IMG/VR virus record: IMGVR_UViG_3300042879_000407
Span: 1 to 57,173 of that record
Source of the DNA: a virus
Lineage: Duplodnaviria; Caudoviricetes
Length of the DNA stretch: 57,173 nt
Reading direction: 5' to 3' (one strand)
The translations under genes and the position numbers were made by a program. The notes under the pieces were generated by a model, which was not told the origin of the DNA, ran no database searches, and was given only the letters and a program-made list of their open reading frames with translations. How positions within the stretch are numbered: position 1 is the first letter of the stretch; every line of letters begins with the position of its first letter. This document shows positions 35,387 to 55,666 of the stretch, one piece after another.

Positions 35387-36949
35387 TTACCTCTCAGTTT
35401 GCTCCTTGATCATATCCAGCAGTAAGCCTTGCAACTTCTGCTTGTTCTTCAACCTTTCATACATCTTATGTTCTAACTCGGTCGCCTCAATGTGTATTAC
35501 GTTTGACACGTAACGCTTACCAATACGCTCAATCCGACCGTTAGCCTGAACGTACTGTTCGTTCTGATTGATAGGGCCATACCAAATGATCGTCGATGCT
35601 GAAGTAAGCGTAAGCCCGTGCGCCATAGTGCCGGGATGCGCGATCAGCACATGCGGTTCTTTAGTATGTTGGAAGTTGTGGAAGATGATGTTTCGTTGAG
35701 ATGCGGATACTTCACCATTCACCACGCCAATAGGCCAGTGCTTCTCAAGTTCCCGCTTCAACATGTGCAGCGTACCGGTCAGCGGCACGAACACAATCAC
35801 CTTCTCACCCGCTTCCTCTATCAACTCTTTGACCAAGTTTACACGCGGTGACGCGTCGATTTCAAGGTTTTGTCCGTTGTCATCGTAGGCCACACCGCAG
35901 GCAATCTGCACAAGTTTCTGAACCTTCACGGCCTCATTGACTGCAGTGATGGTTCCCTGCTTGCGCTCTGCAGCCAGTTCCGTTACGAAATGTTTGAGCA
36001 TCTGTTGGTAGTGCTTCTTCTGTGCCGGTGTCAGTTCCACTGCCCGTGTCTGTATAACGGTATCCGGTAAGTCAAAGCACTCTTCTCTGGTGTACCGCAC
36101 AGCCGGTTGCAAAATATGCTTGACAGTTTCAATTGCATCTGGGCGCGGCACGTACTTCCACTGGCCTACCTTCATCATTACCTGATCACGGAAGTTAGTG
36201 AAAGTGTTAGTGCAGTAGGGGCTGTTGACTAATTTAGCCAGTGACCACGCATCGGTTGGTGCATTGGGTGTAGGTGTGCCAGTCATCAGCCACAAGCGTG
36301 TCGAAGGATTCAACTCCATCCACTTGCGGAACACTTTGAATCTGGTAGTGGATGGGTTACGCAGCACCGCCGCCTCGTCCACGATAACAAGATCAAACAT
36401 CCCAACACATGCTTGTGAAATGATTTGAAATCCGTCGTGGTTGATAATGTAGAAGTCGGCTTCTGTCTTCAGCAGTTTGCGCCTGCGCTCTGCAGTCCCG
36501 TGCAAAGTTACGAACCTGCGGTTGACTAGCCCGGTGAAGATGCCGTCGCCCCACACTCGTTCAAGCGTAGACAAAGGGGACAGAATGAGTACCTTCTTGA
36601 CCTTCTTTGTTTTGATCAAATAGTCCGCAGCCCACAAAGCCGATTGGGTTTTGCCAGTTCCGATCTCGTTAAGTACAAGCCCACGAGAGTTAAGGGTAAG
36701 GAACGCAGCAGTTTCTTTCTGGTGGTTGTATGGCTTGTGAGGGCCGGGCCAGTCGTAATAATGCAGGATAGGGGACGGCGCACGAATACCCAAGTTGTTG
36801 AGTATCTTCACCTCGTCCAATCGGTGCGGCGTTACAACTATATCAATACCCCGAATGTTATACGGCTTAGCCGTAGGTATGGTGCTAAGCACCCGCTCGG
36901 GGTTGTTTAGTTTTAAGGCTAGTGATCTAGCACTCTCGACAACAAGCAT
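35387..36949 (-). CDS. SNF2-like SF2 helicase
   Basis: EIGTGKT, VIVDEA, MTGTP, HGLTLT, QANGRIERIG. Confidence 0.9.
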   Translation of the reverse strand: MLVVESARSLALKLNNPERVLSTIPTAKPYNIRGIDIVVTPHRLDEVKILNNLGIRAPSPILHYYDWPGPHKPYNHQKETAAFLTLNSRGLVLNEIGTGKTQSALWAADYLIKTKKVKKVLILSPLSTLERVWGDGIFTGLVNRRFVTLHGTAERRRKLLKTEADFYIINHDGFQIISQACVGMFDLVIVDEAAVLRNPSTTRFKVFRKWMELNPSTRLWLMTGTPTPNAPTDAWSLAKLVNSPYCTNTFTNFRDQVMMKVGQWKYVPRPDAIETVKHILQPAVRYTREECFDLPDTVIQTRAVELTPAQKKHYQQMLKHFVTELAAERKQGTITAVNEAVKVQKLVQIACGVAYDDNGQNLEIDASPRVNLVKELIEEAGEKVIVFVPLTGTLHMLKRELEKHWPIGVVNGEVSASQRNIIFHNFQHTKEPHVLIAHPGTMAHGLTLTSASTIIWYGPINQNEQYVQANGRIERIGKRYVSNVIHIEATELEHKMYERLKNKQKLQGLLLDMIKEQTER

Positions 36950-43859: not shown

Positions 43860-43879
43860 AGTAGTTACCTCCGTAACAG

Positions 43880-45052: not shown

Positions 45053-45897
45053 ATACCTCCCATAAGAGCGGACATTTTGTCCATGATTGCCTTGGCTTCA
45101 GCCGCCGTGTCACGCCGCATCTCCGGATGCAGTCGCAGAATCTCAGGATGCTTCAACAACTTGGATGAAATCTCCTGCCGCATTGTTTCCAGTTGCGGGT
45201 CATCAGCAAAATTCAATCGCGGAAGCAAGTCACACAACTCCCTTGCATTGTCGATCATGCTGTCGCGAAAGATTGCCTTGGGGTCAGCACACTTCTCGTG
45301 GATATGCTTGACCTTCTCATAGACCCGATTCCACAAGTCCTTCATAGCCGTAGCCTGTGCGCTACGCACCCGCTGCTCAACATCCTGCTGAATGCGTACC
45401 AATTCATCGGCACCAATCTGCACTCGAAAGTCTGATGAAGGCACGGGCATGACCTGAATATCCATGTAGAACTTGCGTTCAATTTCATCCGCTGCAGGGT
45501 AGTCAGACTCGCAGTAGAGCGGCCCCAAGTCCTGCTTGGCCTTGGCTTTGAGCGTGGGGTAGTCATACGCAAACCTCGACACAAGCAACGTGCGCTCAGC
45601 CTTCTCCTTTCGGAAGGTGGTCATAAAGCCAAGGTAGTTGCTAGTCGGAAGCAGGAAGGTGCCTTCAATACCCCACGGCAAGGTGTTCTCATAGAACTTG
45701 TTACGCACAAGCCCATCCTTGCTGTGGATATCCTCGAGCAACGTGCAACCCGGAAGCAGGCATTTGTTATAACGCCCTGCGTTAGTGCTAACCCCGTTGC
45801 TACGGGCAACGTCCTGAGTTACCCGCTTATCCAACTTGCGGCCAGCCCACCCGCCTATGTTCAACTGGACTAGTAGTGCTTTGTCATTCAGATTCAC
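45049..45897 (-). CDS. Helical protein of the AAA-vWA module (DUF3150-like)
   Basis: GTG start with SD GAGGAG; YENTLPW, YP, FRDSM. Confidence 0.55.
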   Translation of the reverse strand: MNLNDKALLVQLNIGGWAGRKLDKRVTQDVARSNGVSTNAGRYNKCLLPGCTLLEDIHSKDGLVRNKFYENTLPWGIEGTFLLPTSNYLGFMTTFRKEKAERTLLVSRFAYDYPTLKAKAKQDLGPLYCESDYPAADEIERKFYMDIQVMPVPSSDFRVQIGADELVRIQQDVEQRVRSAQATAMKDLWNRVYEKVKHIHEKCADPKAIFRDSMIDNARELCDLLPRLNFADDPQLETMRQEISSKLLKHPEILRLHPEMRRDTAAEAKAIMDKMSALMGGM

Positions 45898-45927
45898 AGT
45901 TAATACTCCTCTGTTATCGGTTATCGA

Positions 45928-46227
45928 TTACCGGAACTTCCGTTCGTTGTATTGCAGCAAGTCAAACGGATACCGCCGCTTGCCATCGTTCTCCCAGTGG
46001 ATGACCACCGTACCGGCATCAACCTTCCAACACCCATCGGAAGTGTGGTTGTCACGGGTGTAGTAGAAGGCACGCTTCATCACCTTGGTCTTGTCGGTCT
46101 CGCACGGCTCATCAAGCAACACGATCTTGCCCTTACCCATGTTGTTCATCGTAGCCACAACGGGCGTATCGAACTGGGCATGTGCCGTGGAACACAACAA
46201 CGCTGTCAACGCAATATACTTCTTCAT
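45928..46227 (-). CDS. Secreted / periplasmic protein
   Basis: Sec signal MKKYIALTALLCSTAHA; two Cys in the mature part. Confidence 0.7.
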   Translation of the reverse strand: MKKYIALTALLCSTAHAQFDTPVVATMNNMGKGKIVLLDEPCETDKTKVMKRAFYYTRDNHTSDGCWKVDAGTVVIHWENDGKRRYPFDLLQYNERKFR

Positions 46228-46239
46228 ACAGTTACTCCT

Positions 46240-47239: not shown

Positions 47240-47416
47240 TCACTTATCTCCATGCTTGTGTTTGTCGTGATCAGGGCCGTAGGACACTACGGTTCCACTC
47301 CGCTCATCCCTAGCAGCCTTGGCTGCAGGCTTACTCTCAAAGTACAGAGGCTCGTTACCCTCGCCCCTTACAATTGCTCCACCTTTGCCGTGCCGTAGCA
47401 CGAATAAACGCTTCAT
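47240..47416 (-). CDS. 58-aa protein heading the AAA module (not in ORF track)
   Basis: MKRLFVLRHG...YFESKPAAKAARD...VSYGPDH; SD GAGGAG. Confidence 0.75.
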   Translation of the reverse strand: MKRLFVLRHGKGGAIVRGEGNEPLYFESKPAAKAARDERSGTVVSYGPDHDKHKHGDK

Positions 47417-47426
47417 CAGTATCTCC

Positions 47427-47546
47427 TCAGTTAAACAACAACCACACCGTAGCCGTGGCTACAGCGACCAACCCCCCGTGGATTGCCCCACGGCGGTACA
47501 CCATCCAGAGGATGGCTTCGTACTCCTCACGAGTCACGATTCTCAT
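47427..47546 (-). CDS. 39-aa membrane peptide (not in ORF track)
   Basis: MRIVTREEYEAILW...GLVAVATATVWLLFN. Confidence 0.5.
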   Translation of the reverse strand: MRIVTREEYEAILWMVYRRGAIHGGLVAVATATVWLLFN

Positions 47547-50208: not shown

Positions 50209-50246
50209 GCGGAAGGGTCGCGGGTCGCGGAGAAGGAAGCGCGTGT

Positions 50247-50315
50247 GCGCGGGTGCGCGGGTGCGCGGGTGCGCGGGTGCGCGTGCGTGCGTGCGTGCGT
50301 GCGGGGGGGGGGGGG
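50247..50315. repeat. (GCGCGGGT)4-(GCGT)5-G13 tract at the divergence point
   Basis: Read directly from the sequence. Confidence 0.85.
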
Positions 50316-50415
50316 CACATGGACTGGCGACGGACGGCCCCCCCGGTTTAGAGTAAACCGCTTAAAGCAAGACCCAAAAAAACCAAAACTTTACATCAGC
50401 CACATCCGTCCCACC

Positions 50416-51608: not shown

Positions 51609-51771
51609 CGGCTACGAGGCGGCCGTGTTCGACAACTCCTTGGAGTATCACAACTTCACGAGTGCGCTGAAGCAGCACGGATTATCGTTCTTGACACGCA
51701 TAACCAAGGGCAAAAGGAACGGCAAAAAAGTCCGTAGTTTCGTGGTGATGCTGGTCGAGGACGCCCAATGA
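51559..51771 (+). CDS. Hypothetical protein
   Basis: Overlaps both neighbours. Confidence 0.5.
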   Translation: MVTLPLSLSRRFHTTFDGYEAAVFDNSLEYHNFTSALKQHGLSFLTRITKGKRNGKKVRSFVVMLVEDAQ

Positions 51772-53156
51772 CGTTAGAAATTAACTACACGCCACCGCCT
51801 ACAGGCAAGAAGTTCATGCAGTCGGACGCCAAGATGCGCGTCCTCATGGGGCCGGTAGGTTCGGGCAAGAGCGTCACCTGCTCCTTTGAGATCATACGCA
51901 GGGCGAGTGGGCAACTACCCGACGAGAGAGGCAGGCGGCGCAGCCGCTGGGCCGTGGTGCGTGAGACCGCCCGGCAGTTGCAGGATACGACTATCAAGAC
52001 GTTTCTTGACTGGTTCCCGACCGGGACGTGCGGGACGTTTATGCGCACTACCAAGACGTACCTCTTCAAACTAGGGGATGTCGAGGCGGAGATCATGTTC
52101 CGAGCACTGGACGATGCCGATGACGTGGCTAACCTGAACTCACTAGAACTTACCGGCGCTTGGTTCAACGAGTGCAGAGACATACACCCCGACATCGTAG
52201 ACGCCATGAGTAAGCGCATCGGACGTTTTCCATCGGCCAAGGATGGTGGGCCTACTTGGTTCGGCATGTGGGGGGATACTAACCCGCCGACAATCGACAC
52301 TTGGTGGTACTACCAGATGGAGGGACTGGATCCCAAGGACGGAGTGTCTCCTAACGCAAATGGCTGGGCAGTGTTTAAGCAGCCGTCCGGACGATCGCCG
52401 TACGCCGAGAACGTGGAGAATCTGCCCGAGGGGTACTACGACACGCAGGGTCGCTCTGAGGAGTACATCCGCGTTTACATCGACGGTGAGTACGGGCTGT
52501 CACTGGCTGGTACGCCGGTGTACAAATACTTCAAGCCGGACTACCACATGGCTAAAAATGCGCTGCGGCATATCTCAAACGGGGTGCGGCCCATCGTGGT
52601 GGGGATGGACTTGGGACTTACCCCGGCGGCGCTCATCGGGCAGCAGGATCCACGGGGCAGGGCGCTGATACTTGACGAGTGCGTGTCGTTCGACATGGGC
52701 ATCCAGCGGTTTGTTAGGACTATGCTCAAGCCTAGGATCTACGAGCGCTTTCCCGGCGCTCCCATTTTGGTAGTCACCGACCCGGCTGGTGTGCAGCGAG
52801 CGCAGACCGACGAGCGCAGCGCGGTGGATATCATCAAAGCCGAGGGGCTTAAGGTAATCCCTGCAAAGACCAATAACATATCAGCACGTATTAACGCCGT
52901 TGACGAGTATCTCATGCGGCAAGTCGATGGCGACCCGGCCTTTGTCGTAGACCCGCGATGCACGCAGTTGAAAGCGGCCATGATGGGTGGGTATCGGTAT
53001 AAGCCCAGAGGTAACGGCGAGATCGACAAGAACAAACACTCACACGTCGCAGAAGCGCTTCAGTACCTCATGCTTCACATATCGAACGCGTCGGATGCCT
53101 CCAGCATTGGGCAGAAACGGGAAGTGAAAAGGATTGCAGCCGCCGGTTGGACTTGA
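51768..53156 (+). CDS. terL: Terminase large subunit
   Basis: GPVGSGKS, WFNE, DTNPP, GMDLG, HSHVAEALQY. Confidence 0.93.
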   Translation: MTLEINYTPPPTGKKFMQSDAKMRVLMGPVGSGKSVTCSFEIIRRASGQLPDERGRRRSRWAVVRETARQLQDTTIKTFLDWFPTGTCGTFMRTTKTYLFKLGDVEAEIMFRALDDADDVANLNSLELTGAWFNECRDIHPDIVDAMSKRIGRFPSAKDGGPTWFGMWGDTNPPTIDTWWYYQMEGLDPKDGVSPNANGWAVFKQPSGRSPYAENVENLPEGYYDTQGRSEEYIRVYIDGEYGLSLAGTPVYKYFKPDYHMAKNALRHISNGVRPIVVGMDLGLTPAALIGQQDPRGRALILDECVSFDMGIQRFVRTMLKPRIYERFPGAPILVVTDPAGVQRAQTDERSAVDIIKAEGLKVIPAKTNNISARINAVDEYLMRQVDGDPAFVVDPRCTQLKAAMMGGYRYKPRGNGEIDKNKHSHVAEALQYLMLHISNASDASSIGQKREVKRIAAAGWT

Positions 53157-53162
53157 TATGCT
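53134..53162 (+). promoter_or_regulatory. Promoter of the putative sRNA
   Basis: TTGCAG-N17-TATGCT with extended TG. Confidence 0.6.
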
Positions 53163-53168
53163 CTGCCG

Positions 53169-53235
53169 CGTTATCTCTTCGTTTCATCAGTTCTACTCCT
53201 ATTTTACCCCCGAAGTTCTTTCGGGGGTTCTTTTC
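53169..53235 (+). ncRNA. Putative ~65-nt anti-RBS small RNA
   Basis: Own promoter and terminator, no sense ORF, pyrimidine-rich seed UUUCAUCAGUUCUACUCCU. Confidence 0.55.
53206..53234 (+). terminator. Intrinsic terminator
   Basis: ACCCCCGAA-GTTCT-TTCGGGGGT-TCTTTT. Confidence 0.8.
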
Positions 53236-53238
53236 CTA

Positions 53239-53266
53239 TTGACATTGGGTATACTTGTGCTACAAC
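53239..53266 (+). promoter_or_regulatory. Promoter of the structural operon
   Basis: TTGACA-N16-TACAAC with extended TG. Confidence 0.6.
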
Positions 53267-53291
53267 CCGCATAACGCGGAGGAGTACGCGC

Positions 53292-53600
53292 ATGAAATGC
53301 AACAAGCCTTACACGGTTACGTCGTCGAACTCGAAAATGTCGGGTTCAGTTAAGCCGATCAAGTCCTACCAGAAGGGTGGCATGGTTACTAAGCCGCGCC
53401 AGATGAGCGCAGCGGAATTTAGCCGAAACATGATGGAAGACCCGCGTAAACCCGGCGCAATGATGCGAAATGCTCGCCGCGAAATTGAGAATGCCCCTAA
53501 GTACACCGAGAAGGAACGTGCGGCTATGCGAGAGGCTGAGGGCGCAGCCATGACCAAGAAAACGCAGGAAGGCTACAAGAAGTTCTACGGCAAGAAGTAA
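53292..53600 (+). CDS. Basic small protein with GGxV motif
   Basis: SD GGAGGAG; YQKGGMV. Confidence 0.65.
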   Translation: MKCNKPYTVTSSNSKMSGSVKPIKSYQKGGMVTKPRQMSAAEFSRNMMEDPRKPGAMMRNARREIENAPKYTEKERAAMREAEGAAMTKKTQEGYKKFYGKK

Positions 53601-53602
53601 AC

Positions 53603-55666
53603 ATGGCCGGTCTCACGTTTCTTCGCGTAGTCAATAACTCCGATCTTGCCAAGCAAGAGCAACTTGCTGCCGATAAGGCATTGGAGGCTAGGCAGAATCA
53701 GCCTGTAATTTTAGGGCTGGTTGGCTATCTGCGTGAGTGTTGGGATGCGGCCAAGATGGCCAAAAAGCCCATCGAAAATGAAATGCTCCGTGCGCTACGC
53801 CAAAGAAATGGCGAGTACGAGAACGACAAACTGGCGGCGATTAGGGCACAGGGTGGGTCTGAGATCTACATGATGATCACAGAGGTGAAGTGTCGCGCCG
53901 CCGAAAGTTGGCTTAGAGACATTTTGCTGGACAATGGCACCCCTCCTTGGGATCTCCAAGCCACTCCGATTCCGGATTTGTCCCCCGCCCAGTCCCGCGA
54001 GATTCAGGCTGAGTTTGCCGAGAAAGTGCTTCGAATCATCGAGGAAGGTGGACAGGCTCCCAACCGCGAAGAGATGTCGCAACTGAAAGAGACCGTCTCG
54101 CAGGACTACCGATTCCGTGTACTGCAAGGTGCGCAGCAGCGTGCCGATCGCATGAAGGTGAAGATCCAAGACCAGTTTGCGCAAGGCGGCTGGGAGAAAG
54201 CCTTCAATGATTTTATAACGGATGTCGTTACATTCCCGGCTGCGTTTGTCAAAGGCCCGATTGTACGTAGACAGCGTACTATTGGGTGGAAGACGCTCCC
54301 CAGTGGTCAGACAATTGTTGAGCCAATTGAGCGTCTTGGCCCGGAGTATGAGCGTGTCGATCCATTCCGGATCTTCCCCGAGCCGGGCATCGAAGATTTC
54401 AACGAAGGCTACATTTTTCAGCATCATCCGCTTACCCGCATGGACTTGTCCGATCTGATCGGCGTGCCGGGGTACGACGAAGATGCTATTCGCAAAGTGC
54501 TTGAGATCGGCAACGGCCAGTCTTGGATCAACGAAGATGTTGAATTGATCAAGGACGAGGAAGAGCGCAAGTATTACTCGTACATGCGGCCGACTGAAGT
54601 GTTCGATGCTCTGGAATTCTGGGGCAAAGTCAGTGGAAAGATGCTCATTGAGTGGGGCGTCTCTGAAGAAGAAGTACCCGACCAAGCGCGTGAATACGAC
54701 GCAAACGTGTGGGTAGTGGGTAACTACGTAATCAAGGCGGTACTTAACTATGACCCTCTCGGTGAAAAGCCGTACTCCAAAACCTCGTTCATCAAATGCC
54801 CCGGCGCGTTCTGGGGCAAAGGCATCCCCAAGATCCTCGAAGACCTCCAAAGTGTCTGCAACGCCGCCGCCAGAGCACTGGTCAACAACATGGGCATATC
54901 GTCTGGCCCGCAGGTGGAAGTTAATCTTGAGCGTATTCCACCGAATGAAGACATCACTCAACTCGCACCTTGGAAGATCTGGCAAGTAACCAATGACCCC
55001 ATGGGGTCTAGCGCACCTGCGGTGCGGTTCACTCAGCCTGATTCCCGTGCGTCTGAGTTGATGGCTGTGTATGAGAAATTCAGCCGGTTGGCTGATGATC
55101 ATTCCGGCATCCCCGGATATGTCTATGGTGACCTCGATGTGCAGGGGGCTGGGCGTACTTCGTCGGGCCTTTCGATGCTCATGGGTGCCGCTGGTAAGGG
55201 GATTAGGCAGGTTGTGATGCACGTCGATATGGACGTTGTTAAGCCGATCGTTACCCGTCAGTTCATCTACAACATGCGCTATGACGAGGACGAGAGCATT
55301 AAGGGCGACGTTGAGGTTGTGGCTAGAGGTGCTGTGAACCTCGCGGTGAAAGAGACCGTCAACCTCCGCCGGATTGAATTCCTCAATGCTACGGCTAATC
55401 CGATTGACGTTGAGATCATTGGCCGCGATGGACGCGCTGCAATCCTCCGGGAGATCGCTAAGGGGCTGCAGATGCCCGTCGATGAGATCATCCCCTCCCG
55501 CGAGAAGGCGTCCTATAACGGCCGTATGGAAGCCAAGGCCATGGCTCTTGCTGCCCAGCAGCAACCGCAGCAGCCCGAAGGTGGAACGCCTACAGCCCCT
55601 GATGGGTCTCCCAAAGGCGGCGTAGAGGCTACTACTGTCCGTGGCCCCAGTGGGAGGGCGGCGTGA
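53603..55666 (+). CDS. Portal protein
   Basis: 687 aa between terL and scaffold; VDPFRIFP, FWGKGI, RTSSGLSMLM. Confidence 0.9.
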   Translation: MAGLTFLRVVNNSDLAKQEQLAADKALEARQNQPVILGLVGYLRECWDAAKMAKKPIENEMLRALRQRNGEYENDKLAAIRAQGGSEIYMMITEVKCRAAESWLRDILLDNGTPPWDLQATPIPDLSPAQSREIQAEFAEKVLRIIEEGGQAPNREEMSQLKETVSQDYRFRVLQGAQQRADRMKVKIQDQFAQGGWEKAFNDFITDVVTFPAAFVKGPIVRRQRTIGWKTLPSGQTIVEPIERLGPEYERVDPFRIFPEPGIEDFNEGYIFQHHPLTRMDLSDLIGVPGYDEDAIRKVLEIGNGQSWINEDVELIKDEEERKYYSYMRPTEVFDALEFWGKVSGKMLIEWGVSEEEVPDQAREYDANVWVVGNYVIKAVLNYDPLGEKPYSKTSFIKCPGAFWGKGIPKILEDLQSVCNAAARALVNNMGISSGPQVEVNLERIPPNEDITQLAPWKIWQVTNDPMGSSAPAVRFTQPDSRASELMAVYEKFSRLADDHSGIPGYVYGDLDVQGAGRTSSGLSMLMGAAGKGIRQVVMHVDMDVVKPIVTRQFIYNMRYDEDESIKGDVEVVARGAVNLAVKETVNLRRIEFLNATANPIDVEIIGRDGRAAILREIAKGLQMPVDEIIPSREKASYNGRMEAKAMALAAQQQPQQPEGGTPTAPDGSPKGGVEATTVRGPSGRAA

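What the first reader, a model, noticed from the sequence alone, without database searches (positions are those of the whole stretch)
53134..53235. Stand-alone anti-RBS small RNA complementary to early-gene start regions
Seen: promoter TTGCAG-N17-TATGCT, then about 65 nt with no ORF, then an intrinsic terminator, followed by a separate promoter for the structural genes. The seed CGUUUCAUCAGU-ucua-CUCCU (53180-53200) can pair with the start region of the 58-aa gene (47409-47427): 12 bp including one G-U over the AUG, plus 5 bp over the AGGAG SD. It pairs more weakly with the RBSs at 46223-46239 and 45897-45910, all in the AAA-vWA module. Established: antisense RNAs such as P22 sar block RBSs but are cis-encoded. 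Inference: a trans-encoded phage sRNA acting as an RNA repressor of an early module (early-to-late switch or immunity), possibly also of host mRNAs. Caveat: CUCCU pairs with any strong SD.
Basis: partly seen in the sequence, partly recalled or inferred. Interest (0 to 1): 0.82.

Follow-up and report, generated by a model that had tools for sequence, protein, structure and literature searches.

The report
Conserved phage small RNA after terminase
Right after the large-terminase gene this uncultured lake phage and its relatives keep a short non-coding RNA gene whose exposed pyrimidine-rich stretches mirror ribosome-binding sites, so it probably turns down some of the phage's own early genes.

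Summary
The -35 box lies inside terL (51768-53156). The terL stop TGA supplies the TG of an extended -10 (TGA-TATGCT). The terminator is also terL's terminator.

Comparison with relatives shows a conserved RNA gene. Of 48 distinct terL-downstream sequences, 42 have TGA followed directly by TAnnnT. Then come an optional hairpin, a single-stranded GUUGUCACCUCC-type motif, a hairpin with covarying stems and a CU-rich loop, and an intrinsic terminator. No Rfam family reaches threshold. The window's copy is a stripped version in which only the terminator folds.

It ranks first in this genome, but shuffled RNAs do as well in 53% (energy) or 6% (12-bp helix) of trials. Relatives keep the gene but lack the AUG-covering seed.

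A different seed (53170-53178) and the start region of the Nmad5-like gene (43864-43872, same early module) change together across genomes (0 of 1854 derangements; p 0.00024 with 22 pairs).

Verdict: an apparently undescribed phage small RNA, most likely an anti-RBS regulator like P1 c4. Transcription is unproven. Unchecked scan notes describe similar RNAs on other DNA.

The parts
53134..53139 (+). -35-like hexamer TTGCAG, inside the terL coding sequence (Val-Ala codons); not conserved where the protein differs
53154..53162 (+). terL stop codon TGA plus TATGCT, together an extended -10 (TGn-TAnnnT). 42 of 48 distinct relatives have TGA followed directly by TAnnnT
53168..53235 (+). predicted small RNA of about 65 nt. 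The start is inferred as 6-7 nt after the -10 and is not mapped. The end is at the terminator U-run
   Evidence: in relatives the first hairpin starts at the equivalent position
53170..53178 (+). motif 1, GUUAUCUCU. This is the window's version of the family's conserved single-stranded GUUGUCACCUCC / GUUCACUCC motif and the candidate seed for the Nmad5-like gene
The CUCCU corresponds to the CU-rich loop of hairpin P2 in the relatives. The AUG-covering 12-mer is specific to this genome
53206..53235 (+). intrinsic terminator (10-bp G+C-rich stem, UUCUUUUCC tail), shared by terL and the small RNA
53239..53266 (+). separate downstream promoter TTGACA-N16-(TGc)TACAAC for the 102-aa gene and portal. 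Not part of the RNA; it marks the RNA's 3' boundary
It is the best hit in this genome but has no comparative support
43864..43872 (-). GGAGGUAAC, the SD plus spacer of the 213-aa Nmad5-like gene (ATG at 43859-43857). This is the best conserved target candidate from covariation

Best explanation
The region is the gene for a small non-coding RNA of an apparently undescribed family carried by a clade of uncultured lake podophages. Host RNA polymerase would start at an extended -10 promoter built on the terL stop codon. Transcription would end at the terminator that also ends terL, so the RNA could also be cut from the terL 3' end.

In most relatives the RNA has three parts before the terminator. 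There is an optional 5' hairpin (P1), then a single-stranded pyrimidine-rich motif (consensus GUUGUCACCUCC, containing the anti-Shine-Dalgarno core CCUCC). Then comes a hairpin (P2) that presents a second CU-rich motif in its loop. In this window P1 and P2 are lost and both motifs are unstructured.

Inferred mechanism: the motifs pair in trans with the Shine-Dalgarno and spacer (and in some genomes the AUG) of early, opposite-strand mRNAs and block ribosome loading.

The best-supported conserved target is the Nmad5-like gene at the end of the 58-aa / MoxR-AAA / vWA-peptidase module. In this phage and its closest long relative, the 58-aa first gene of the same module is a plausible second target.

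Shown: conservation of the promoter element, the structure and the motifs, and covariation with one start region. Inferred: transcription, action in trans, repression and timing.
For: (1) Relatives. The terL protein found at least 597 relatives in viral contigs and 80 loci were kept. I read the DNA downstream of terL in all 80. 72 of 80 gave a hairpin plus T-run with my first script. Seven more, including the window's close kin, have a TTCTTTTCC tail that my pattern missed; four of these were added to the alignment by hand and the other three repeat L031's sequence. L044 lacks the unit and L078 is cut off.

(2) Promoter. 42 of 48 distinct sequences have TGA followed directly by TAnnnT, in non-coding DNA. 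Some of the sequences with other stop codons keep a TAnnnT hexamer nearby.

(3) Structure. 43 of 48 have a P2 hairpin of at least 4 bp, with 34 distinct 5' stems. The body MFE z-score has median -1.61 and is below -2 in 19 of 48. Four full-length relatives fold with z from -3.4 to -5.5. Around YYCCUUC loops, 21 of 32 contexts have flanks that pair over at least 5 bp, against 18% for non-cognate flank pairs.

(4) No coding explanation. Short ORFs are not conserved. No Rfam family reaches its gathering score. The sub-threshold hits are all base-pairing sRNAs: PsrR1 28.3 bits (gathering 42), Betaproteobacteria toxic sRNA 30.3 bits (gathering 50), anti-hemB and mmgR.

(5) Target covariation.
- A rank combination over 7 genomes puts the Nmad5-like gene first of 37 orthologue groups.
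- Cognate sRNA/start-region pairs beat non-cognate pairs by 4.8 kcal/mol, with 0 of 1854 derangements as good. This is the best of 27 groups.
- With 15 non-redundant pairs, 0 of 200,000 permutations match the cognate mean.
- With 22 pairs p = 0.00024. With one representative of the commonest type (16 pairs) p = 0.001.
- The window has GUUAUCUCU:GGAGGUAAC and relative G007 has GUUCACUCC:GGAGUGAAC. They differ by two adjacent double changes that keep pairing.
- G007 has 13-bp and 9-bp helices to the same start region.

(6) Strand bias. Early-strand start regions are predicted to bind better than late-strand ones in the window (p 0.0005), G006 and G009.
Against: - No transcript is shown. The RNA-library contigs that I laid did not cover 53133-53674, which says nothing either way.
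- Within single genomes the Nmad5-like start region is not the top RNAduplex hit (ranks 2, 8, 6, 4, 22, 25, 22 of 57-67). Shuffled sRNAs usually find some start region that is as good.
- 8 of 27 orthologue groups have p < 0.05 in the cognate test, more than chance gives. Genome composition may therefore inflate the statistic, or there may be several targets.
- Four of the seven genomes show no early-strand preference.
- Any CU-rich RNA pairs with any strong SD.
- On DNA the two covarying sites are a direct repeat, so a repeated protein-binding site could also covary.
- The window's own copy lacks the family's hairpins and could be a decaying member.
- Gene starts come from my own simple gene finder, and some are wrong. 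The terL and portal starts were corrected by hand only for the window's 71-start set; the multi-genome scripts still use the miscalled starts.
Confidence: 0.55

Rival explanations
1. The region is only the terL 3' untranslated region and terminator. The hairpins protect the terL mRNA from 3' exonucleases or act in cis on it, and no separate RNA acts in trans.
For: The unit begins at the terL stop and uses terL's terminator. The -35 box is weak and unconserved. The consensus promoter scan finds nothing. No transcript data are available.
Against: A TAnnnT hexamer directly after the stop codon is kept in 42 of 48 distinct sequences, although it is non-coding. A 12-nt single-stranded motif is conserved, and it covaries with a start region 9 kb away. 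Stability hairpins alone do not need either feature.
Confidence: 0.2
2. It is a cis-acting leader: promoter, short RNA and terminator placed before the structural genes. Read-through into portal and capsid genes would be allowed by an antiterminator protein or by the RNA itself, as with lambda PR'-6S-tR' or the HK022 put RNAs (both recalled, not looked up).
For: The layout is promoter, then 65-95 nt of folded RNA, then a terminator immediately upstream of the portal operon. Other scan notes read similar phage units this way (unchecked).
Against: A separate, conserved TTGAC-N16/17-TAnnAC promoter lies between the terminator and the next gene in the window and in most relatives I read, so read-through is not needed. 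I saw no conserved -10-like pause element in the first transcribed bases. I did not test for alternative antiterminator pairings.
Confidence: 0.1
3. The covarying motif is a repeated DNA site (an operator for a phage DNA-binding protein) present both after terL and at the Nmad5-like gene start. It is not an RNA seed.
For: On the + strand the two sites read alike (GTTATCTCT versus GTTACCTCC in the window), so they form a direct repeat. Operator copies also change together.
Against: The two differences between the window's copies are both T/C differences that give G-U pairs in RNA. One copy sits exactly on an SD and spacer. The other sits between a promoter and a terminator, in a pyrimidine-rich RNA with covarying hairpins. 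No regulator is identified.
Confidence: 0.07
4. The reader's seed is the ribosome-binding site and start of a real minus-strand 39-aa gene (53068-53187), antisense to the end of terL.
For: The complement reads AGGAG-N8-ATG-AAA-CG. Of 137 public matches to the seed pattern, 111 are places where the complement starts an ORF of at least 60 aa, so the seed looks like a mirrored generic gene start.
Against: The ATG is absent from every relative read. There is no Pfam hit. I saw no convincing minus-strand promoter between 53190 and 53300 (by eye). My codon-usage gene finder did not select the ORF.
Confidence: 0.03

Closest known systems
c4 RNA of phages P1 and P7
   Same: It is a phage-encoded RNA of about 77 nt, listed as trans-acting. 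It binds complementary stretches around a ribosome-binding site in a phage mRNA and blocks translation. Its complementary segments are thought to sit in loops, and sequence differences between P1 and P7 set specificity (PMC12197685, section 7 and Table 1, read; PMC8546580, passage read). That is the same logic as loop and linker motifs that covary with a start region here.
   Different: There is no sequence or Rfam relation. c4 belongs to the immunity operon of temperate plasmid prophages and, by my recall, is processed from the transcript it regulates. This RNA sits after terL in the late region, about 9 kb from its candidate target on the other strand, with its own -10.
sar RNA of phage P22
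   Same: A small phage RNA that pairs with the start region of a phage mRNA (ant) and lowers its translation (PMC12197685, section 2, read).
   Different: Here the complementarity is short (9-20 bp) and the target is distant.
3'-end-derived sRNAs with a promoter inside the upstream gene, such as MicL
   Same: The promoter lies within or at the end of the preceding coding sequence, the terminator is shared with that gene, and the RNA represses translation by pairing (MicL: search listing and abstract only, PMC4102768).
   Different: MicL is a host, sigma-E-dependent, Hfq-dependent RNA. Host, sigma factor and chaperone are unknown here.
Bacterial sRNAs with C/U-rich anti-SD loops (Rfam Betaproteobacteria toxic sRNA RF02278, PsrR1 RF02701, mmgR RF00519, anti-hemB RF02837)
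   Same: They are short, fold into one or two hairpins plus a terminator, and carry exposed CU-rich motifs. These are the only families that give sub-threshold matches.
   Different: All scores are well below the gathering thresholds: 28.3 versus 42, 30.3 versus 50, 24.6 versus 41 and 25.7 versus 49.5. Different relatives hit different families. This is not membership.

Membership tests
terL-downstream CU-rich small RNA of this phage clade (family defined here) | Position directly after the terL stop, upstream of the promoter of the portal operon | tested here: met
   same position in the window and in the relatives read
terL-downstream CU-rich small RNA of this phage clade (family defined here) | TGA stop followed directly by a TAnnnT -10 hexamer | tested here: met
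   window TGA-TATGCT; 42 of 48 distinct sequences
terL-downstream CU-rich small RNA of this phage clade (family defined here) | Single-stranded GU..CUCC motif 1 near the 5' end | tested here: met
   window GUUAUCUCU aligns with GUUACCUCU (L002, L007) and GUUCACUCC (L016). It diverges from the majority form GUUGUCACCUCC.
terL-downstream CU-rich small RNA of this phage clade (family defined here) | P2 hairpin presenting a CU-rich loop | tested here: not met
   The window body has no predicted structure (0.0 kcal/mol). CUACUCCU matches the 5' stem and loop of relatives, but the 3' stem is missing.
terL-downstream CU-rich small RNA of this phage clade (family defined here) | G+C-rich intrinsic terminator with a U-run | tested here: met
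   nearly identical to the terminators of L002, L003 and L007
Trans-acting anti-RBS phage RNA (c4-like kind) | A discrete small transcript exists | not testable with these tools
   Only contigs of RNA libraries were available, and none covers the locus.
Trans-acting anti-RBS phage RNA (c4-like kind) | Complementarity to the ribosome-binding site of a phage mRNA encoded elsewhere | tested here: met
   47409-47427 (12+5 bp) and 43864-43872 (9 bp)
Trans-acting anti-RBS phage RNA (c4-like kind) | RNA and target change together between related phages | tested here: met
   Met for the Nmad5-like gene start, with a possible composition confound. Not met for the 58-aa gene.
Trans-acting anti-RBS phage RNA (c4-like kind) | Repression of translation of the target | not testable with these tools
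   needs reporters or infection experiments
Rfam PsrR1 (RF02701) | Score at or above the family's gathering threshold | tested here: not met
   28.3 bits versus 42. None of the 10 relatives scanned matches it at E <= 1.
Rfam Betaproteobacteria toxic small RNA (RF02278) | Score at or above the family's gathering threshold | tested here: not met
   30.3 bits versus 50 in one relative (L046) only; no hit in the window

The most novel reading that the evidence does not exclude
The majority form of the RNA (a hairpin followed by single-stranded UCACCUCC) copies the 3' tail of 16S rRNA. It would then act not on one gene but as a free anti-Shine-Dalgarno decoy. It would soak up strong SD sequences on early (and host) mRNAs and shift ribosomes to weak-SD or leaderless late messages, giving an RNA-only early-to-late translational switch. 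Alternatively, it could serve as a decoy for a factor that recognises the 16S tail.
Probability: 0.1. Interest if true: 0.85.

Novelty: new member of a known kind. Interest (0 to 1): 0.6.

Why it matters
The 2025 review's Table 1 lists about two dozen phage small RNAs with a described function (PMC12197685). Most come from temperate phages or prophages of cultured hosts.

This case is a structured RNA family at a fixed position, present in nearly all of the 80 closest loci kept out of at least 597 terL relatives among uncultured lake phages. It has a promoter built on a stop codon. It also has a natural series of compensatory changes pointing to a specific target, the start of an Nmad5-like gene in a MoxR-vWA module next to the replication genes.

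If confirmed, it would show RNA-level control of early genes in an environmental phage group. It would also supply ready-made specificity variants for testing how short anti-RBS seeds evolve.

The limit is that no cultured member is known. The two cultured relatives I checked lack the element.

Tried and rejected
- Expression. One search for sequencing runs found four RNA-library runs holding parts of 52300-54000. Laying them gave contigs over terL (52464-53132) and portal (from 53675), and none over 53133-53674. Contigs cannot show absence, so this is no evidence either way.

- Rfam. At gathering thresholds the whole window gave 0 matches. The relaxed searches gave only sub-threshold sRNA look-alikes. 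There are no tRNAs.

- DNA search of the phage collection with 52700-53700 gave no match.

- Extended target for the conserved 14-mer. I searched its complement in five relatives. The only recurrent non-self hit (GGAGGTGACGAC in G001 and G005) lies inside the coding sequence of the 282-aa gene homologue, where it encodes KEVTT. I rejected it as a coding coincidence.

- 15-mer scan of genome contigs. It listed 120 or more hits in unrelated taxa, about what chance gives by my rough estimate. Only one (L171, a contig of an uncultured actinobacterium MAG) has the family context. This is too weak to name a host. In viral contigs, 49 of 80 matches had the terL context and 31 were chance matches.

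- Scans for the window's own seed variant. No other contig carries it in the terL context. The two regex 'hits' were false.

- RNAalifold on a MAFFT alignment recovered only 4 terminator pairs, because the hairpins are misaligned. A second MAFFT alignment of P2 segments was also out of register. I therefore built no covariance model and made no count of structure pairs. The structure evidence comes from per-sequence folds and flank-swap tests.

- Cultured relatives. Pseudomonas phage Rollin has a 9-nt terL-portal gap. Rhizobium phage RHph_TM3_14A has a convergent gene after terL. Neither has the element.

- I did not use structure prediction, complex prediction, the protein atlas or the large protein searches, because they have no bearing on an RNA question.

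- Literature. Two searches bear on novelty. One used phage-encoded / sRNA / anti-Shine-Dalgarno and one used c4 RNA / bacteriophage P1 / antirepressor / icd. A third, on toxic small RNAs, returned unrelated tRNA-fragment papers. I found no description of a terL-downstream anti-SD RNA. The searches were few. [quoted passage not shown]

- Papers, and how much of each I saw:
  - PMC12197685: outline, sections 4 and 15, and passages from section 9 were read.
  - 10.1101/2024.10.31.621285: outline and abstract only.
  - PMC8546580: two passages.
  - PMC4102768: listing and abstract only.
  - Recalled and not looked up: lambda 6S/PR', HK022 put, details of c4 processing, and 16S tail-cleaving toxins.
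Full report
**What the window is.** The window is a complete IMG/VR virus record of 57,173 bp with direct terminal repeats.
- Genes on the + strand from about 50.4 kb, running through the record's end and on to about 30.9 kb, are packaging and structural genes. They include terL at 51768-53156 (Pfam Terminase_3) and the portal at 53603-55666 (SU10_portal).
- Genes on the - strand from 30.9 to 49.0 kb include DNA polymerase A, an SNF2-type helicase and a DUF927 protein. They also include the module 58-aa / AAA / 99-aa / 282-aa / DUF2201 peptidase-vWA / Nmad5-like (the last a weak hit, 21.9 bits against a cut-off of 27).
- The closest cultured phage by TerL is Pseudomonas phage Rollin at 45.6% identity. 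The DNA runs that hold half or more of the stretch (X1-X4) are lake-water metagenomes. The host is unknown.

**The observation.** Three facts change how it reads.
- The '-35' and spacer are the last codons of terL. The terL stop TGA together with TATGCT forms an extended -10.
- The terminator is also terL's terminator.
- The complement of the seed reads as a textbook gene start (AGGAG-N8-ATG-AAA-CG) and opens a 39-aa minus-strand ORF. Of 137 public matches to the seed pattern, 111 are places where the complement starts an ORF of at least 60 aa. The seed is therefore a mirrored generic start region. That makes it a good anti-RBS, but it also makes a match to some Met-Lys-Arg gene easier to get by chance.

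**Is the pairing above chance?** By energy it ranks 1 of 71 start regions (RNAduplex -26.1) and 1 of 67 (cofold ddG -20.8, next best -17.6). However, 52.6% of 500 dinucleotide shuffles of the RNA find an equally good best start region. By helix length, the 12-bp helix (one G-U) is unique in the genome, and 19 of 300 shuffles reach 12 bp against the 71 start regions. This is borderline.

**What relatives show about the locus.** The terL protein finds at least 597 relatives in IMG/VR, and the best 80 (83-88% identity) were fetched. Almost all carry a non-coding unit after terL. I aligned and folded 48 distinct versions.
- The common plan is: TGA-TAnnnT (42 of 48); about 6 nt; an optional hairpin P1 (ACUGC...GCAGU) starting where transcription should start; single-stranded GUUGUCACCUCC; hairpin P2; GUU; then a G+C-rich terminator with a U-run.
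- After the terminator comes a conserved TTGAC-N16/17-TAnnAC promoter.
- P2 is present with at least 4 bp in 43 of 48 sequences. It has 34 different 5' stems, and 29 of 48 loops contain a CU-rich tetramer.
- Around YYCCUUC loops, the true flanks pair over at least 5 bp in 21 of 32 contexts, against 18% when flanks are swapped between sequences.
- Full-length relatives fold far better than shuffles, with z from -3.4 to -5.5.
- This behaviour fits an RNA gene with its own promoter element, not a spacer. No Rfam family reaches threshold. The weak look-alikes are all base-pairing sRNAs with CU-rich seeds.

**The window's copy is atypical.** It aligns with L002, L003, L007 and L016 at the -10, at motif 1 (GUUAUCUCU), at CUCC and at the terminator. 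It has no P1, the 3' half of P2 is gone, and its body is predicted to be unstructured.

All ten relatives searched keep the 58-aa gene. In the eight whose start I could place, it opens with an ATG/GTG-AAR-CG or ATG-ATG start. Their RNAs lack the CGYUUCAU complement. Cognate pairs are no better than non-cognate pairs (n=8, -16.25 versus -15.43, p 0.16). The closest long relative (G006) does have an 8-bp match of its motif 1 to this start region. A clade-specific target therefore cannot be excluded.

**A different, conserved target candidate.** I called genes in the window and six whole relatives. I scored each RNA against each start region and combined ranks by orthologue group.
- The Nmad5-like gene came first of 37 groups. 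Its mean ln rank was -2.69 over 7 genomes, which I estimate by hand at p of about 6e-4 before correction for 37 groups.
- The sequence just 3' of GGAG in its start region changes in step with the bases 5' of CUCC in the RNA:
  - window GUUAUCUCU:GGAGGUAAC
  - G007 GUUCACUCC:GGAGUGAAC
  - G003 GUCACCCUCC:GGAGAGUGAC
  - G006 CUUUUCUCC:GGAGAAAG
  - G009 ACCCCCUC:GAGGGGGU
- Window and G007 differ by two adjacent double substitutions that keep pairing.
- Cognate-versus-non-cognate tests:
  - Over 7 genomes: -22.97 versus -18.15 kcal/mol, 0 of 1854 derangements, best of 27 groups.
  - Over 15 non-redundant pairs: 0 of 200,000 permutations.
  - Over 22 pairs: p 0.00024.
  - Over 16 pairs, after collapsing the commonest type: p 0.001.
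- G007 has 13-bp and 9-bp helices to this one start region.

**Caveats on the target candidate.**
- Within single genomes this start region is not the top RNAduplex hit.
- 8 of 27 groups reach p < 0.05, so composition or multiple targets contribute. The SNF2 helicase and a 133-aa gene are next.
- At the DNA level the two sites are a direct repeat, so a shared protein-binding site is a formal alternative.

**How it probably works.** The RNA is made from the -10 at the terL stop, or released from the terL 3' end. It exposes CU-rich stretches that cover the SD and spacer of early-strand mRNAs, above all the Nmad5-like gene, and here perhaps also the 58-aa first gene of the same module. This lowers their translation. 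In the window, early-strand start regions are predicted to bind better than late ones (p 0.0005). Timing, chaperone, and whether repression spreads along the operon are unknown.

**Comparison with what is known.** The nearest known system is the c4 RNA of P1 and P7. It is trans-acting, covers a ribosome-binding site, presents its complementary segments in loops, and has specificity differences between related phages (PMC12197685, sections read). The present RNA shares that logic but no sequence. It has a different genomic position and a different phage type. It is a new family of a known kind. The scan's own unchecked notes mention similar anti-SD phage RNAs on other DNA, one of them also directly after a terminase stop.

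**Verdict.** A better-supported target lies in the same module. Transcription and repression remain to be shown.

Noticed in passing
window 53239-53266, and the same position in L003-L081: The promoter after the terminator has a strongly conserved (T)GTATACTT, with a GTATAC palindrome, inside its spacer between TTGAC and TAnnAC. It could be an operator or an overlapping extended -10.
   Followed up: no
window 50230-50320: A run of simple repeats (GCGGGTGCGC units, then GTGC units, then a run of G residues) sits upstream of the packaging genes.
   Followed up: no
window 36949 (start of the SNF2-type helicase, 35387-36949, minus strand): This is a second candidate target. In relative G001 the conserved motif GUUGUCACCU pairs over 10 bp with the homologue's start region. 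The window RNA has two 8-bp helices to it. The cognate test gives p 0.049.
   Followed up: partly
window 53068-53187, minus strand: A 39-aa ORF with a perfect AGGAG-N8-ATG lies antisense to the end of terL. It is not conserved in relatives.
   Followed up: partly
L171 (genome contigs; contig of an uncultured actinobacterium MAG, 14 kb): This is the only hit in the bacterial and archaeal genome collection that has the full terL-stop / small-RNA / terminator / promoter context. It is probably a phage contig binned with that MAG and gives only a weak host hint.
   Followed up: partly
   Followed up: no
L611 (Pseudomonas phage Rollin) and L612 (Rhizobium phage RHph_TM3_14A): The two cultured terL relatives that I checked lack the element. 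Rollin has a 9-nt gap between terL and portal. RHph_TM3_14A has a convergent gene after terL.
   Followed up: yes
window 53267-53294: The leader of the 102-aa gene can form a small hairpin (CCGC-ATAA-GCGG) abutting its GGAGGAG ribosome-binding site. Similar CCGCG..CGCGG hairpins occur in several relatives.
   Followed up: no
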